Shown piece by piece: positions 58,001-64,000 of a stretch of 64,000 nucleotides of DNA. Made by a program: the position numbers. Numbering within the stretch: the first letter of the stretch is position 1; each line of letters starts with the position of its first letter. The DNA is taken from contig CM049899.1 in the NCBI GenBank assembly GCA_027474245.1, positions 1,084,536 to 1,148,535 of the forward strand, written 5' to 3'. The DNA comes from Spheniscus humboldti. Lineage: Eukaryota.

Positions 58001-61000
58001 ATGGTGGCCAGCTAATGCTCCAGAAGAGCCCCCATAGGTGCTGGGTCAGGTTTCCAAGCAGCATATTGATACTTCAGCTACCCCAGGGCATCTCAGATAG
58101 TAACAGCTGCTGGATGTGGGCAAAGAAATCAATCAAACGGTTTTGCTCCATCAGCTTCCAAAGGATTGAGATAAGGCTGACCAGCCTGTAGTTCCACGGA
58201 TGCTCCTCCTTGCCCTTTTTGAAAATGGGTGCAATGTCTTGAGCAGGGTCTGGATTTGAGAAGCACCTGCAGTAGGATGAAGAGCCAAGTATCTGCCCAA
58301 GTAGGTTACTCAGATCTGGAACCTACTGGACCTCCAAGTAAACTCCAGCCCCTGTTCAAGCCCTTACTCAGCTCTGGCCCCTGCTTAGGCTCCAACTTGG
58401 CTCTGGCCCCTGCTCAGGCATTCACAGCACTACCACACCTGCTTGAAATACTACCTTGGCTCCATAAGGAGATAGAGCAAATAATTGTCTCTGCATCTTC
58501 CTTAGAAAACTGCCGAGCTCTGGCCCTTACTCAAGTAGCTTCTTAGCTGCAGCCCCTGTTCAGTGGCTACTCAGAGTTGGCATCTGCTCTGGCACCCACT
58601 TGTCTATGGATATCTCACCATCTTAGCTCCAGCCCCTAAGCTCTGGTAACAATCTTGAGTAGGTGCTGTCTGAGACGGATCAAAGATCAGTGGCTGCCCA
58701 AACAGGGGCTGAAGCTTGTAGCAGCCAGAGCAGAGGCTGGAATGTAGTTGGAGCCCAAGGACTGTACAGACCTGAGTGTGCAACAAGGAGTGGCAGCAGT
58801 TTGTAGGAGCCCAAGGAGGGACTTGAGTTGAGTGGCATCATGAGCAGGGGTGGTAGAGACATGGAAGCCCAAGAAGGGTCCAGAGCTAAGTTGGAGAGTG
58901 AGCATGAGCTGGAGCTGAGTAAGACCTTGTGCAGGGGCTGCACTTGAGTTGCAGCTGGAGCAGGGGCCAGAACCAAGTTGAAGCTTGCGAGCAGCTGGAG
59001 CTGAGTAAGAGCTTGCACAGCACATACAGTTGAGTTGCAGCCAGATTCAGCACCAGATCTGAACAGCTGCTCGAGAAGGGGCTGGAAGCCAAGTGTGAGC
59101 CTGAGTATGGGTTGAAGTAAGACCTTCAGCAAGGGCTGGAGCTGAGTTGGAGCCGGAGGAGGGGCCAGAGCTGAGTAAGAGCTTAAGCATCTGCTAGAGT
59201 TGAGTTGGAGCCTAGAGCAGGGACTAGAGCCCAATTGGATTCTTAGCAAGAACCAGTGCCAAGCTGGAGTTGAGCAGGGGACAGAGCTGAATAAGAGCTT
59301 GAACAGCTGCTAGACTTGAGTTGAAGCTTAACAGATCTGTGATCTGAGTAGCCACTCAAGCAGGGGCCAGAGCCAAGTTGGAGCCAGGGCAGGGGCCAAT
59401 GCTAAGTAAAACTTGAGCAGGGATGGAGTGGATTGGGAGGCCAAACAAGTTCCATATCTAAGTACCTGCTCAGACAGAGGCTGGAGCTAAATGGATCCTC
59501 AGCCTGAGCCAGAGCTGAATAAGAGCTTAAGCAGCGGCTAAATTTGAGTTGTAGCCTGACCAGGTGCCAGATCTGAGTAGCCTCTTGAGCAGAGACCAGA
59601 TCCAAGTTGGAGCCTGAGCTGGATCTGAGTAGCTGCTCAAGAAGGGACTGGGACCAAGAAGCTAGGGCCAGAGCTCAGTCACCCTTAAGAAGATTGCAGA
59701 GCCAAGTACCTGCCCAAGCAGTGGCTGTGTGGGCCCTAGACACTTCCCGGGTGCCATGTCTTCTCCAGTGCCTGTCTGGGTAGCCACTGGGCTTTGATTC
59801 TGCTCAGGCAGATATTTACATCAGGCTGCTGCTTGGGCTGAAACTCAATTATAGTCCCTAACTGGGCTGATACTTTCCTCTGCGTCCTACTACAGGGGCT
59901 AATTAATCCAACCCCTGCTTGAGTGGCTACTCTGCTCTGGCTCCTTCTCAGACTCCAAATCAACGCTAGCCCCTGCTCAAGCTTTTACTCAGCTCTGGCC
60001 CCTTGCTAAGGCTCCAACCTGACTCCAGCCCTGAAAAAGCATCTACTTGGATCTGGCACCTGCTTTGCCTCCATCTCGGCTCCAGCCCCTGCTCAAGCTC
60101 CTACTCAGCTCGGGCCTCTATTCAGGCTCCAAATTAACTTCAGCCCCTGCTCCTGTTCTTACTCTGCTCCACCACCTCCTCAGGATCATACCTGGTTCTA
60201 GATGCTGCTCCTGAAGCTACCCAGATACGGCACCTGCATGGCCTCTGTCTCCAATCCAGCCCTTGCTCAACTCTTACTCAGCTCTGGCCCTTGCTCAGGC
60301 TCCAACTTGGCTCTGGACCCTCCTCATGCAGCTACTCAGATCTGGCACCTGCTTGGGCTCCAACTAAACCTCAGCCCCTGCTCGAGCTCTTACTGAGCTC
60401 CAGCCTATGCTAGACTCCAGCTTGGCTCCAGCCCCTGCTTAGGCTCCAACTTGGCTACGGCCCCTGCTCGAGTGGACACTCAGATCTGGTGCCTGCTCAG
60501 ACTCCAACTCAACTCCCACCTCTGCTTAAGTACTTACTCAGCTCCAGCCACCGCTCAGGGTATAGTTTGGATCCAGCCCTTCCTCAGGCTCCAACTTGGC
60601 TCCTGCCCCTGCACGAGAGGCTATTCAGATCTGGCACCTGCTCAAGTTCCAACTCAACTCCAACCCCTGCTCTAGCTCTTAATCAGTTCCAGCCCCTCCT
60701 CAGGCTCAAGCTTGGTTCTGATCCCTGCACAAGCAACTACACCTGTTTGAGCTCCAACACAATTCCAGCCCCTGCTCATGATCTTACTCAGCTCCAGCTC
60801 CTGCCCTGGCTCCAACTTGGCTCTGGCCCCTGCTCAAACTCCAACTTGACTTCTGCCTTTGCTTGAGTGGCCAGTCAGGTCTGGCACCTCCTTGAGCTCC
60901 AACTCAATTCCAATCCCTTTTCAAGCTCTTACTCACCTCTGGCCTCTGCTCAGACACAAACTATGCCCCAGTCCCTGCTCGAGTGGCTACTCAGACCTGG

Positions 61001-64000
61001 AGCTATTCAGGCTCCAACTCAACTCCAGTCCTTGCTCAAGTTCTTACAAAGTTCTGGCCCCACCTCAGGATCCAACTTGGCTCCAGCCCCTACTTGACTG
61101 GCCACTCAGATCTAGCACCCACTCAGGCTGCAACTCAACTCCAGCCCCTGCTCACACTCTTTCTCAACTCAAGCCCTTGCCCAGGCTCCATTTGGCTCCA
61201 GCTCCTGCTGAGACTCAAACTTGGCTCTGGACCCTGCTCAAGCGACTACTTAGATCTGGCACCTTAGGATCTAACTCAATGTCAGCCTCTGCTCAAGCTC
61301 TTAGTCAGCTCTAGCCCCTGCTCAGGCCCCAACTTGCCTTTGGACACTGCTCGAGCAGCTACTCAAATCTGGCTCTTGCTCATCCTCCATCTCAACTCCA
61401 GCACCTGCTCAAGCTCTTACTCACCTCCACCCCCACCTCAGGCTCCAACTTGGCTACAGACACTGCCTGAGTGTGTACTTCAATCCGGTGCCTGCACAGG
61501 CTCCAAATCAACTCCAGCCCCTGCTCAAGCTCCTACTCTGCTCTGGCCCCACCTCAGGCTCAAATTTGGCTCCAGGTTCTGTTCAAGAAACTACTCAGAT
61601 CTGATCCCTGCTTAGGCTGCACCTCAAATCCAGACCCTGCTCAAGCTCTTACTCTGCTCTGGCCACTGCTCAGGCTCCAACTTCACTCCAGCCTCTGCTC
61701 AGGTGGCTACTCAGACCGGGCACCTATTTGGGCTCCAACTTGACTCCAGACCCCACTCAAGCTCTTACCCAGCTTTGGCCCCTGCTCAGCCTTCAGTTCC
61801 TACTCAGCCCTTTCTCAGTCTCCTGTAATCTTCAGCTCCCTACTCAGGAGGCAGTTTCTGGGCTCTGGCCCTTATTCTGGTTTCCACTTTCCTCCAGCCT
61901 CTGCTCCAGCTGCTACTCACTGCAGCCCTTTTTTGGGTCCAGTGGGGTCTTACGTCTCTTGGGCGGCTACTTACATCTTTCCCCTGCTCAGGCTCTGACG
62001 GACTTCTGGGTCCTGCAACCCCACTACAGGCTCTGCTCAGGGAGATACTTTGCTCTGGCCCCTGCTCAGGCAGCTATTTCTCTCTCTCTTTCTGGGGGCT
62101 TCTCAGCTCCAAGCGCTGCTTGACAGCCTCTCATTTCTAACTCTTGCTCATGCTTCAACTTGTGTCTGGCTTAAGCTTTGCTCCAGCCCCTTGTGGGGTG
62201 GCTCCTCAGCTCCAGTCCCTGCTCAGGGGCTGCTCAGCCACCGCCCCTGTTCAGGCAGCTGCTCAGTTTGGGCCCCTGCTTGGTTCCTAACAGTGCCCCA
62301 CTGACCCAAAGGTGAGCTCATTCCTTGGCCTCAGCGGCCCCTCCTCATCCTGCCCTTGCCTTCCTCTCTCCTTTCCTGGGCCCTTTTGCCCTGTCCCCTG
62401 GTGCACCCTTGTTCCCAGGCAGCCACTCACCTTAGAATCATAGAATCATTAAGGTCGGAAAAGACCTCTAAGATCGTCAAGTCCAACCGTCAACCCAACA
62501 CCACCATGTCCTCTAAACCATGTCCCTAAGCGCCTCATCTACACGTCTTTTAAATACTTCCAGGCATGGTGACTCAACCACTTCCCTGGGCAGCCTGTTC
62601 CAATGCTTAACCACTCTTTCAGTAAAGACATTTTTCCTCACATCCAATCTAAACCTCCCCTGGTGCAACTTGAGGCCATTTCCTCTTGTCCTATCGCTTG
62701 TTACTTGGGAGAAGAGACCGACACCCCAGGCCCATCCTTGACCCCAGGCCCCTGGACAAGGAGAGGACAGGCCCTTCCCTGGGGCCAAAGGGGCTCCTGG
62801 CTCCCCCTGCCACTACTCACAGATGCATGCAGAGCACCCCAACACCCCAGTGATGCCCCCATGTCAGGGGCTTGCTCGGTTCTCACCCTTCTCCTCAGCG
62901 TTGGGGGCTTCATCTTCAGCCATGGACGATGGCGAGCACTCCCCAAACCCTATCCATAAGCATGGGTGTGTCTCCTCTGGATGCTGCTCCATTGGCCCTG
63001 AGGGGGAGCAGAATGAAGTGAGCCTCGAGCATGGGACCCCAGCCCCAGGATGCAGGGGCCACCCCTCCCTCAGCACACAGCCACTGCTACCCTCCTGCCC
63101 ACTGTGACACCAATGGGACACAGCCACCACTGCCCTCCTGCCCCCTGTGACACCACGGGGACACAGGCATCCCTGCCCTCCTGCCCGCTGTGACACAGCC
63201 ATCAGAGCACTGGGGCTGTAAAAAACCTTTTACAATACAACATTTAACCTAATGTGTTTGATTGCTCCCCAGATCCTGGTAATTTCAATGCAAATATTTG
63301 GCAATACTTTTACATATTACCTGGCTGCAGATTACATTTGCCTGCTTTTCCTCTGTTTATCTACCCATTTATTAATAATACTGATGGCAGGCAAGCTCTC
63401 AATAAACAAATAATAATACTGTTCTTCCTGTGTCATTAAAAAGCTGAAACAGATATAGCATTTCTGTTTATAAGACCCTTATTTGCAGGTAGTCAGATGC
63501 AGAAAATTAAGTATTTAACTGTAAATCAAATTGGTACTTTACACTAGGAGGTATTAAAGTTTGAGTATTAAAGATACTAATTTCAAGTATAAAAACAATG
63601 ACAAATTATACAAATTTACCAGCTGTGACTGGTAAAGCTTTTGTCTAATGATATATGAATTCCTCAAGTCAGTAAAATTATATAATAATATAGGTGTTGT
63701 AATAATGCTTTACAGTGCTGAGTTTTGTGGGGAAAATTATTATGCATTATTTGCTTTTTTTGATCAATAAGCTTATAAATATCAAACAGTATTATTCAAT
63801 ATTAGAGTAAGACAACTCATTACTTCACCATTAAGACAAGTTTGGTTCAATGTACTGTAAAGATAAAATGTGCAATACTGTAAAGCTTGAACATGAACAC
63901 TACCTGTCCCTAACTGGTTCAGGTGAGACAAGTATCTAAAAAAATGTCCTGAATTATTTGCTGAAGTGACTAATAGTTGTAGCTCTTCTATTTCATCAAA

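What the first reader, a model, noticed from the sequence alone, without database searches (positions are those of the whole stretch)
58230..62330. Roughly 4.1-kb satellite array with a hierarchical structure (about 30-bp subunits, about 120-bp higher-order period) and two internal orientation flips
The subunits are four diverged ~30-mers in the order 'tgctcaagctcttactcagctctggcccc', 'tgctcaggctccaacttggctctggaccc', 'tgctcgagcagctactcagatctggcacc', 'tgcttgggctccaactcaactccagcccc'. The third subunit recurs with a mean period of about 120 bp (range 105-145, plus one 250-bp gap spanning a degenerate unit). The segment 58680-59720 is the reverse complement of the flanking arrays, so the array reads plus, minus, plus. 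This suggests an inversion inside the array or a palindromic amplification. Frame-independent open reading (ORFs of up to 189 aa in several frames) is a by-product of the stop-poor repeat. I do not recognise this as a familiar named satellite, but I cannot search databases.
Basis: seen in the sequence. Interest (0 to 1): 0.6.

Follow-up and report, generated by a model that had tools for sequence, protein, structure and literature searches.

The report
Old decayed tandem repeat with inversions
This is a real 4-kb non-coding tandem repeat in a bird genome (29-bp units grouped into 116-bp blocks, partly flipped in orientation); it looks like an ancient, decaying relic of ordinary repeat dynamics rather than a gene or a new kind of element.

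Summary
Window 58238-62285 is one tandem array with a 29-bp period (z about 24 against shuffles), a 58-bp dimer level and a 116-bp four-subunit higher-order unit (A-B-C-D), plus 145-bp A-B-B-C-D variants. The orientation pattern is minus, plus, minus, plus. That is three flips, not two, because a short minus piece at 58238-58305 was missed.

The minus block keeps the same A-B-C-D order, so the higher-order unit predates the inversion. Copies are only about 72% identical to each other and 79-91% identical to the consensus. Neighbouring copies are no closer than distant ones, the plus and minus blocks do not form separate clades, and CpG is nearly erased (o/e 0.09). This points to one old amplification followed by inversion(s) and neutral decay, with no ongoing homogenisation.

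The long ORFs are a compositional by-product. The period is not a multiple of 3, stop codons are scarce on one strand only, and there are no Pfam or protein homologues.

The window is avian (CR1, ERV, olfactory-receptor fragment). No related sequence was found in any collection or paper available to me, but no bird genome DNA database could be searched, so abundance, and hence the label "satellite", remains untested. Ordinary; low interest.

The parts
58238..58305 (-).
   Evidence: The HOR HMM hit covers model positions 28-95, E 7.7e-6. The tiling gives weak c and d units.
58281..58304 (+). Motif AGAGCCAAGTATCTGCCCAAGTAG at the first minus-to-plus flip; copy 1 of 2
   Evidence: There are only two matches in the window and 0 expected by chance. 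The extended 39-nt pair is 79% identical (family D15). 22/24 matches are common between near-consensus units, so this is suggestive only.
58289..58636 (+). Left plus-orientation block (C D A B, then degenerate units)
   Evidence: HOR HMM hits at 58289-58350, 58353-58453 and 58515-58600; tiling.
58637..58687 (.). Convergent (plus-to-minus) junction; no long unique insert, only degenerate C-like units
   Evidence: Tiling; sequence.
58688..59727 (-). Minus-orientation block, about 1.04 kb, with the same A-B-C-D higher-order order read in reverse
   Evidence: 12 minus-strand HOR HMM hits. Inverted BLAST HSPs to the plus block at 64-73% identity. The tiling string reads '...badcbad...'.
59698..59721 (+). 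Motif AGAGCCAAGTACCTGCCCAAGCAG at the second minus-to-plus flip; copy 2 of 2
59728..59800 (.). Divergent (minus-to-plus) junction: about 70 bp of very degenerate unit-like sequence with a small local inverted repeat (CAGTGGCT ... AGCCACTG)
   Evidence: Sequence; low tiling scores. The hairpin centre in the DNA fold lies here.
59764..61782 (+). Main plus-orientation block. The cleanest A-B-C-D / A-B-B-C-D register is at 60148-61782, with four indel-free 116-bp copies at 61290-61753
   Evidence: TRF rows; HOR HMM hits; tiling; copies 83-91% identical to the consensus.
61783..62285 (+). Degenerate right tail of the array
   Evidence: Weak HOR HMM hits at E 3e-7 to 3e-3; low tiling scores; lag-29 z of only 3.9.
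58143..58238 (-). Left flank: old CR1 reverse-transcriptase fragment that abuts the array (not part of the repeat)
   Evidence: tblastn with the window's CR1 ORF2, aa 419-450, 53% identity; translation DIAPIFKKGKEEHPWNYRLVSL.
62433..62726 (-). Right flank: young 5'-truncated CR1 3' end, about 150 bp beyond the array (not part of the repeat)
   Evidence: 96% nucleotide identity to 38969-39262.

Best explanation
This is a relic non-coding tandem array (minisatellite-sized 29-bp unit) in a bird genome.

Proposed history:
1. A C-rich 29-mer, itself built from about five GCTCNN-like hexamers, diversified into two unit types (58-bp dimer) and then four (116-bp A-B-C-D higher-order unit).
2. The multi-unit block was amplified by unequal exchange or replication slippage to about 35 higher-order copies, with occasional extra-B (145-bp) variants.
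3. After the higher-order unit was fixed, segments of the array were inverted, giving -,+,-,+ blocks.
4. Homogenisation stopped and the whole array decayed neutrally, losing its CpGs, fraying at both ends and acquiring CR1 neighbours.

It has no detectable coding or structured-RNA role. Its only intrinsic property is that the inverted blocks can fold back on each other.

Shown: the periods, the hierarchy, the orientation pattern, the shared higher-order order in both orientations, star-like divergence, CpG loss, and the absence of coding signal.

Inferred: the slippage/unequal-exchange mechanism, the order of events, the age (about 17% divergence from the consensus, JC distance about 0.19; at the roughly 2e-9 per site per year usually quoted for birds, which is my own knowledge, this is tens of millions of years up to about 100 My), and neutrality.
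For: - Periodicity and hierarchy. Lags 6, 12, 17 and 23 are also enriched, z 10-12.
- The repeat is confined to 58238-62285.
- The minus block carries the same A-B-C-D order.
- Identity is 0.745 within plus, 0.704 within minus and 0.722 between blocks. Adjacent copies are 0.73-0.76 identical, the same as non-adjacent ones. Copies are 79-91% identical to the consensus.
- CpG o/e is 0.09, against 0.19 for the window.
- The arms are about 30% diverged, so a sequencing or assembly fold-back chimera, which would be near-perfect, is excluded.
- There is no coding signal. There are no Rfam families in the window.
- Avian context: the CR1 ORF2 is 75-90% identical to Mycteria, Anas and Anser proteins, and the ERV pol is up to 94% identical to Grus, Mycteria and Theristicus proteins.
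Against: - Nothing contradicts this explanation directly, but its key parts are inference.
- Neutrality and lack of function were not tested; no expression, methylation or cross-species data were available.
- The age estimate assumes an initially homogeneous array and a borrowed rate.
- Genomic copy number is unknown, because no avian nucleotide database was searchable.
- The shared non-consensus motif at both minus-to-plus flips hints at a more structured history, namely duplication of a module that already contained a flip, rather than independent inversions.
Confidence: 0.8

Rival explanations
1. Palindromic (fold-back) amplification: the minus and plus blocks arose as mirror-image duplicates by a hairpin or template-switch event, rather than by inversion of part of an existing array.
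For: - The highest-scoring inverted HSP (58872-59612 against 60834-60069, 266 bits) is in a near-mirror register, centred about 100 bp from the flip.
- The C subunit carries the palindromes TGCTCGAGCA and CAGATCTG, and all three flips lie at or next to C-like units.
- The region spanning the flip folds into one long imperfect hairpin, -191 kcal/mol, z -7.5, against z +1.9 for a single-orientation control.
Against: - Mirror-register identity (68%) is no higher than in the other registers (64-73%).
- Between-block identity (0.722) lies between the two within-block values, so mirror partners share no extra ancestry.
- The arm lengths are very unequal (1.0 against 2.5 kb).
- The C-unit association is weak (about p 0.07 by my rough count).
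Confidence: 0.2
2. The array is a decayed remnant of a once abundant, lineage-wide satellite, for example an extinct (peri)centromeric or subtelomeric array. On this view the first reader's word 'satellite' is right in origin.
For: - Higher-order organisation is typical of satellites.
- The neighbourhood is TE-rich, with several CR1 and ERV copies and an interstitial CCCTAA run 33 kb away.
- Old alpha-satellite layers look like this: diverged, inverted and TE-flanked.
Against: - There is only one 4-kb array and no other copy in the 64-kb window.
- The motif is absent from searchable papers and from metagenome, prokaryote and viral collections. These are poor proxies for bird genomes.
- It does not belong to the described chicken 21-bp-core satellite family (criteria from PMC7374410).
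Confidence: 0.12
3. It is the remnant of a mobile element whose ends or interior are tandem sub-repeats: a foldback-type DNA transposon, or a TE-internal array that expanded.
For: Inverted arrays of hierarchically organised short sub-repeats around a short centre resemble Drosophila FB elements (own knowledge). TE-derived tandem arrays are a common origin of satellites (PMC7004042, listed; title only).
Against: - No flanking terminal direct or inverted repeats other than the array itself were found.
- There is no similarity of the unit to the CR1 or ERV copies in the window; unit-HMM hits outside the array have E>6.
- No transposase or other ORF with a Pfam match lies in or next to it.
- The extra plus block to the left of the minus arm breaks a simple two-arm design.
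- There is a single copy in the window.
Confidence: 0.04
4. It is a functional RNA locus: transcription through the inverted blocks gives a long hairpin RNA or small-RNA source, or an architectural lncRNA like chicken LL2R or PO41 repeat transcripts.
For: Strong fold-back potential across the flip. Bird tandem repeats can be transcribed and functional (LL2R, bioRxiv 10.64898/2026.03.19.712899; PO41, PMC7374410).
Against: - The arms are only about 70% complementary.
- There is no Rfam match.
- CpG is almost erased and decay is star-like, which indicates no sequence constraint.
- No full-length CR1 or other promoter candidate is adjacent.
- No expression data are available.
Confidence: 0.03
5. 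It is a protein-coding repeat (Leu/Ser/Pro-rich repetitive protein exon).
For: ORFs of 125-189 aa on the C-rich strand.
Against: - The 29- and 116-bp periods are not multiples of 3, so the frame rotates every unit.
- ORFs occur in all three frames of one strand, because that strand is simply stop-poor.
- There are 0 Pfam families.
- There were no hits among 5.8 billion proteins with the consensus translation.
- There were only two spurious repetitive hits (E 2e-4 and 8e-4) among 1.84 billion representatives.
Confidence: 0.01

Closest known systems
Diverged (monomeric or divergent-HOR) alpha-satellite layers flanking human centromeres
   Same: Tandem units are organised into higher-order repeats. 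Once homogenisation stops, the arrays accumulate point mutations, strand switches (inversions) and nearby TE insertions (Altemose et al.). The present array shows all three features.
   Different: The unit is 29 bp (116-bp HOR), not 171 bp. The array is 4 kb, not hundreds of kb. There is no evidence of centromeric location or of genomic abundance. The organism is a bird.
Classical GC-rich minisatellites (10-100-bp units, arrays of 0.5-30 kb, strand asymmetry in purine and pyrimidine content)
   Same: The unit length is 29 bp and the array length about 4 kb. Strand asymmetry is strong (C 38% against G 18% on the plus core). The array is a single locus.
   Different: Minisatellites are usually defined by hypervariability and relatively similar units. 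Here the copies are about 72% identical, with a fixed four-unit higher-order pattern and internal inversions. Variability could not be tested.
Chicken PIR (partially inverted repeat) and the CNM / PO41 / EcoRI-XhoI family
   Same: These are avian tandem repeats, and PIR units contain partially inverted segments (PMC7374410).
   Different: That family is defined by a 21-bp core with (A)3-5 and (T)3-5 clusters. Here, identity at lag 21 is at background (0.228) and the consensus has no A or T run of 3 or more. PIR units are 1.2-1.6 kb and span megabases on one chromosome.
Foldback (FB) transposons of Drosophila
   Same: Inverted arms are composed of hierarchically organised short tandem sub-repeats around a short middle (own knowledge). 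The present locus has strong fold-back potential.
   Different: There are no defined termini, no target-site duplication, no second copy and no associated transposase. There are four blocks rather than two arms, and the arms are about 30% diverged.
Chicken LL2R locus-specific tandem repeat
   Same: It is an interstitial, locus-specific avian tandem array next to CR1 sequence.
   Different: LL2R has a 446-bp monomer, a 160-kb array and about 86% monomer similarity, and it is transcribed from a full-length CR1 promoter. There is no sequence or size resemblance here, and no full-length CR1 is adjacent.

Membership tests
Satellite DNA (classical sense) | Head-to-tail tandem arrangement of a defined monomer | tested here: met
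   29-bp period, z about 24; TRF; 144 tiled units.
Satellite DNA (classical sense) | Higher-order repeat organisation (common but not obligatory) | tested here: met
   116-bp A-B-C-D and 145-bp A-B-B-C-D units.
Satellite DNA (classical sense) | High genomic abundance, with long arrays at several loci | not testable with these tools
   No avian nucleotide database was available. There is one 4-kb array and no other copy in the 64-kb window. Proxy searches were negative.
Satellite DNA (classical sense) | Intra-array homogeneity maintained by concerted evolution | tested here: not met
   Pairwise HOR identity is about 0.72, and neighbours (0.73-0.76) are no closer than distant copies.
Minisatellite | Unit of 10-100 bp in an array of about 0.5-30 kb at a single locus | tested here: met
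   29-bp unit and 4.05-kb array.
Minisatellite | GC-rich with strand asymmetry | tested here: met
   GC 0.54-0.55; C 0.378 against G 0.176; GC skew -0.35.
Minisatellite | Length hypervariability between individuals | not testable with these tools
   Only a single sequence is available.
Chicken CNM / PO41 / PIR / EcoRI-XhoI repeat family | 21-bp core periodicity | tested here: not met
   Identity at lag 21 is 0.228 (background about 0.275), against 0.522 at lag 29. The criterion comes from PMC7374410.
Chicken CNM / PO41 / PIR / EcoRI-XhoI repeat family | (A)3-5 and (T)3-5 clusters in each core | tested here: not met
   The consensus has no A or T run of 3 or more. The array has 0.17 A-runs and 0.21 T-runs per unit.
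Foldback-type transposon | Two terminal inverted arms made of tandem sub-repeats | tested here: inconclusive
   Inverted blocks of sub-repeats exist, but there are four blocks (-,+,-,+) of very unequal size, not two terminal arms.
Foldback-type transposon | Multiple genomic copies with defined ends and target-site duplications | not testable with these tools
   There is no second copy in the window, no flanking repeat pair, and the source genome is not searchable.
Protein-coding tandem repeat | Repeat period divisible by 3, with one conserved reading frame | tested here: not met
   The periods are 29, 58, 116 and 145 bp. The translation of the consensus cycles through all three frames.
Protein-coding tandem repeat | Homologous proteins or domains | tested here: not met
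   0 Pfam families, 0 hits and 2 spurious hits.

The most novel reading that the evidence does not exclude
The array may be the eroded footprint of an ancestral avian (peri)centromeric or subtelomeric satellite. Together with the interstitial telomere-like run 33 kb away and the dense CR1/ERV fill, it would then mark an extinct centromere or an old chromosome-fusion or subtelomeric site. Alternatively, it may be the first relic of a foldback-type element in birds. Neither reading is excluded, because the source genome and other bird genomes could not be searched.
Probability: 0.08. Interest if true: 0.45.

Novelty: new member of a known kind. Interest (0 to 1): 0.14.

Why it matters
It matters little on its own. 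It is a clean small example of what happens to a higher-order tandem array after homogenisation stops: star-like divergence, CpG erasure, frayed ends, internal strand switches and TE neighbours. It could serve as a neutral marker for dating rearrangements if the orthologous locus is compared across birds. For annotation, it warns that the 125-189-aa ORFs here are not genes, and that the inverted blocks (hairpin z = -7.5) are a possible site of replication or assembly trouble. It would become more interesting only if the 116-bp unit proved to be abundant or positionally conserved, for example as a paleocentromere.

Tried and rejected
1. Translated-consensus search (a 115-aa peptide spanning all three frames) against 5.8 billion proteins gave no hit.
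2. The longest array ORF against 1.84 billion representatives with full HMMER gave two marginal hits that are unrelated repetitive proteins.
3. Exact look-up of the array ORF and of the ERV gag found neither on record, so the source genome's gene calls are not in that collection. The negative protein searches therefore say little about abundance.
4. Two metagenome scans, one GTDB genome scan and one IMG/VR scan with 22-24-nt array motifs gave 0 matches. These collections are not bird genomes.
5. A full-text search for six 15-17-mers of the repeat found 0 papers.
6. Rfam on the whole window gave 0 families.
7. Pfam on four array ORFs gave 0 families.
8. Species identification did not succeed. 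The CR1 ORF2 and ERV pol show that the window is avian (best matches Mycteria, Grus, Theristicus, Anas), but there is no exact match, so the species is undetermined.
9. I tested whether the two minus-to-plus junctions are duplicates of each other. The shared 24-mer is unique to them, but 22/24 matches are common inside this array (322 window pairs), so I keep it only as a hint.
10. I tested for mirror symmetry as a palindrome signature. There is no excess identity in the mirror register.
11. I rejected an assembly fold-back artefact, because the arms are about 30% diverged.
12. I rejected membership of the chicken 21-bp-core family.

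
Full report
**Observation.**
- Tandem Repeats Finder reports overlapping arrays of period 29, 58, 105, 115, 116 and 145 bp between 59927 and 61789.
- In 59900-61800, base identity at lags 29, 58 and 116 is 0.52 against 0.275 for shuffles (z 23-24). 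Lag 29 is also the top lag in 58680-59720 (z 12) and in 58230-58680 (z 5.4).
- Of 98 hits with a 29-bp unit HMM, 96 fall within 58246-62275; the two outside have E>6.
- An iterated 116-bp HMM gives 43 hits, all inside 58238-62285.

**Anatomy.** A dynamic-programming tiling with the four subunits on both strands yields 144 unit-like segments, 101 plus and 43 minus.
- The core, 60148-61782, reads A-B-C-D with interspersed A-B-B-C-D copies. This explains the 116-bp and 145-bp periods from TRF. Four copies at 61290-61753 are in perfect 116-bp register.
- A-C (23/29) and B-D (24/29) are the closest subunit pairs. This explains why lag 58 is as strong as lags 29 and 116, so the hierarchy is 29, then 58, then 116 bp.
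- Enrichment at lags 6, 12, 17 and 23 (z 10-12) suggests that the 29-mer itself grew from about five GCTCNN-like hexamers.
- The orientation pattern from the HOR HMM is minus (58238-58305, E 7.7e-6), plus (58289-58600), minus (58688-59727), plus (59764-62285).
- The minus block keeps the same higher-order order read backwards ('...badcbad...'), so the A-B-C-D unit existed before the inversion.
- Neither the convergent junction (about 58637-58687) nor the divergent junction (about 59728-59800) holds a sizeable unique insert. Both consist of degenerate, mostly C-like units.
- Both array ends (58411-58640 and 61783-62285) are much more eroded than the core.

**History read from divergence.**
- HOR copies are 79-91% identical to the consensus.
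- Mean pairwise identity is 0.745 within the plus block, 0.704 within the minus block and 0.722 between blocks. Adjacent copies (0.73-0.76) are no closer than distant ones.
- Inverted BLAST alignments between the blocks run at 64-73% in every register. The near-mirror register scores best (266 bits) but is only 68% identical.
- This star-like pattern indicates one old amplification, no later homogenisation, and no special relationship between mirror-paired copies. I therefore prefer inversion of part(s) of an existing array to a palindromic duplication, although an event as old as the amplification cannot be told apart.
- CpG o/e is 0.09, against 0.19 for the window. That fits long-term germline methylation and decay.
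- About 17% divergence from the consensus (JC distance about 0.19), at the roughly 2e-9 per site per year usually quoted for birds (my own knowledge, not tested here), puts the burst tens of millions of years ago, up to about 100 My. This is a rough inference.
- Because the arms are about 30% diverged, an assembly or sequencing fold-back chimera is excluded.

**A hint of a more structured history.** The two minus-to-plus flips share AGAGCCAAGTAYCTGCCCAAGYAG (58281 and 59698). These are the only two matches in the window, and they extend to a 39-nt pair at 79% identity (D15). This could mean that a module already containing a flip was duplicated. However, 22/24 matches are frequent within this array (322 window pairs), so I treat it as suggestive only. 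All three flips lie at or beside C-like units, and the C subunit contains two palindromes (TGCTCGAGCA and CAGATCTG). The association is weak (about p 0.07 by a rough count).

**Not coding, not a known RNA.**
- The periods are not multiples of three, and the consensus translation rotates through all frames.
- The 125-189-aa ORFs all lie on the C-rich strand, which has 9-13 stops per 603 codons per frame against 39-41 on the other strand.
- The ORFs match no Pfam family.
- The consensus peptide finds nothing among 5.8 billion proteins.
- The longest ORF finds only two spurious repetitive proteins among 1.84 billion representatives.
- Rfam finds nothing in the whole window.
- The segment spanning the central flip folds into one long imperfect hairpin as single-stranded DNA (-191 kcal/mol, z -7.5). 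A single-orientation control does not (z +1.9). This follows geometrically from the inverted blocks and is not evidence of function.

**Context.** The window is avian and TE-rich.
- An intact CR1 ORF2 (39944-42520) has RVT_1 and endonuclease domains and is 75-90% identical to proteins annotated in Mycteria, Anas and Anser.
- An ERV with intact gag and pol (27100-32391) has a pol that is at most 94% identical to Grus, Mycteria and Theristicus proteins. The species was not identified.
- The array is bounded on the left by an old CR1 RT fragment (58143-58238, minus strand).
- About 150 bp beyond its right end lies a young 294-bp CR1 3' end (62433-62726, 96% identical to another copy in the window).
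- No flanking direct or inverted repeat pair suggests a transposon boundary, and the unit has no similarity to the TEs in the window.

**Comparison with known repeats.**
- By unit and array size, and by its GC-rich strand asymmetry, it fits a minisatellite-scale array.
- It is not a member of the described chicken CNM/PO41/PIR/EcoRI-XhoI family, which is defined by a 21-bp core with A and T clusters. Lag 21 is at background, and the consensus has no A or T run of 3 or more.
- It does not resemble the 446-bp LL2R repeat.
- The resemblance to foldback transposons (inverted arms of hierarchical sub-repeats) is architectural only. There are no ends, no target-site duplication, no second copy, and four blocks rather than two arms.

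**Limits.** No bird nucleotide database, Dfam or Repbase could be searched. Motif scans of metagenomes, prokaryotic genomes and viral contigs and of full-text papers were negative, but they are poor proxies. Exact look-ups show that the source genome's gene calls are not in the protein collection. Whether the 116-bp unit is single-locus or a genome-wide family, and so whether 'satellite' is the right word, stays open.

**Verdict.** This is an ordinary relic tandem array, an apparently undescribed member of a well-known kind, and of low interest.

Noticed in passing
window 25013-25078: There is an interstitial telomere-like run, about 11 imperfect CCCTAA units, followed immediately by a sharp drop in GC. 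It might mark an old break-repair or fusion site, or a TE boundary.
   Followed up: partly
window 27100-32391 (minus strand): An endogenous retrovirus has uninterrupted gag (701 aa) and pol (1043 aa; RVT_1, RNase_H, rve domains) ORFs, so it may be young. Its pol is at most 94% identical to proteins annotated in crane, stork and ibis genomes. Degraded copies of the same family lie at 19975-21424 and 34276-37815. The gag holds a 30-bp coding tandem repeat at 31490-31653.
   Followed up: partly
window 38961-42520 (minus strand): A CR1 LINE with an intact 858-aa ORF2 is followed by a 93%-identical tandem duplicate of its own 3' 834 bp (38961-39792 against 39856-40689).
   Followed up: no
window 44130-44492 (minus strand): An ORF encodes the C-terminal half of an olfactory receptor (Pfam 7tm_4, E 1.8e-13). 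It is probably a pseudogene or part of a longer gene, and it suggests an OR-cluster neighbourhood.
   Followed up: no
window 63075-63196 and onwards: A 43-bp tandem repeat (2.8 copies, 87% matches) is followed by an abrupt change to 38% GC sequence from about 63200 to the window end.
   Followed up: no
window 54297-54445: Two overlapping short tandem repeats of 41-42 bp (2.2 copies each) are unrelated to the 29-bp array.
   Followed up: no
window 58294-58323, 59563-59591, 60321-60349 and other C subunits: The C subunit contains two perfect palindromes (TGCTCGAGCA, which includes an XhoI site, and CAGATCTG, which includes a BglII site). All three orientation flips lie at or next to C-like units. 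This is statistically weak.
   Followed up: partly
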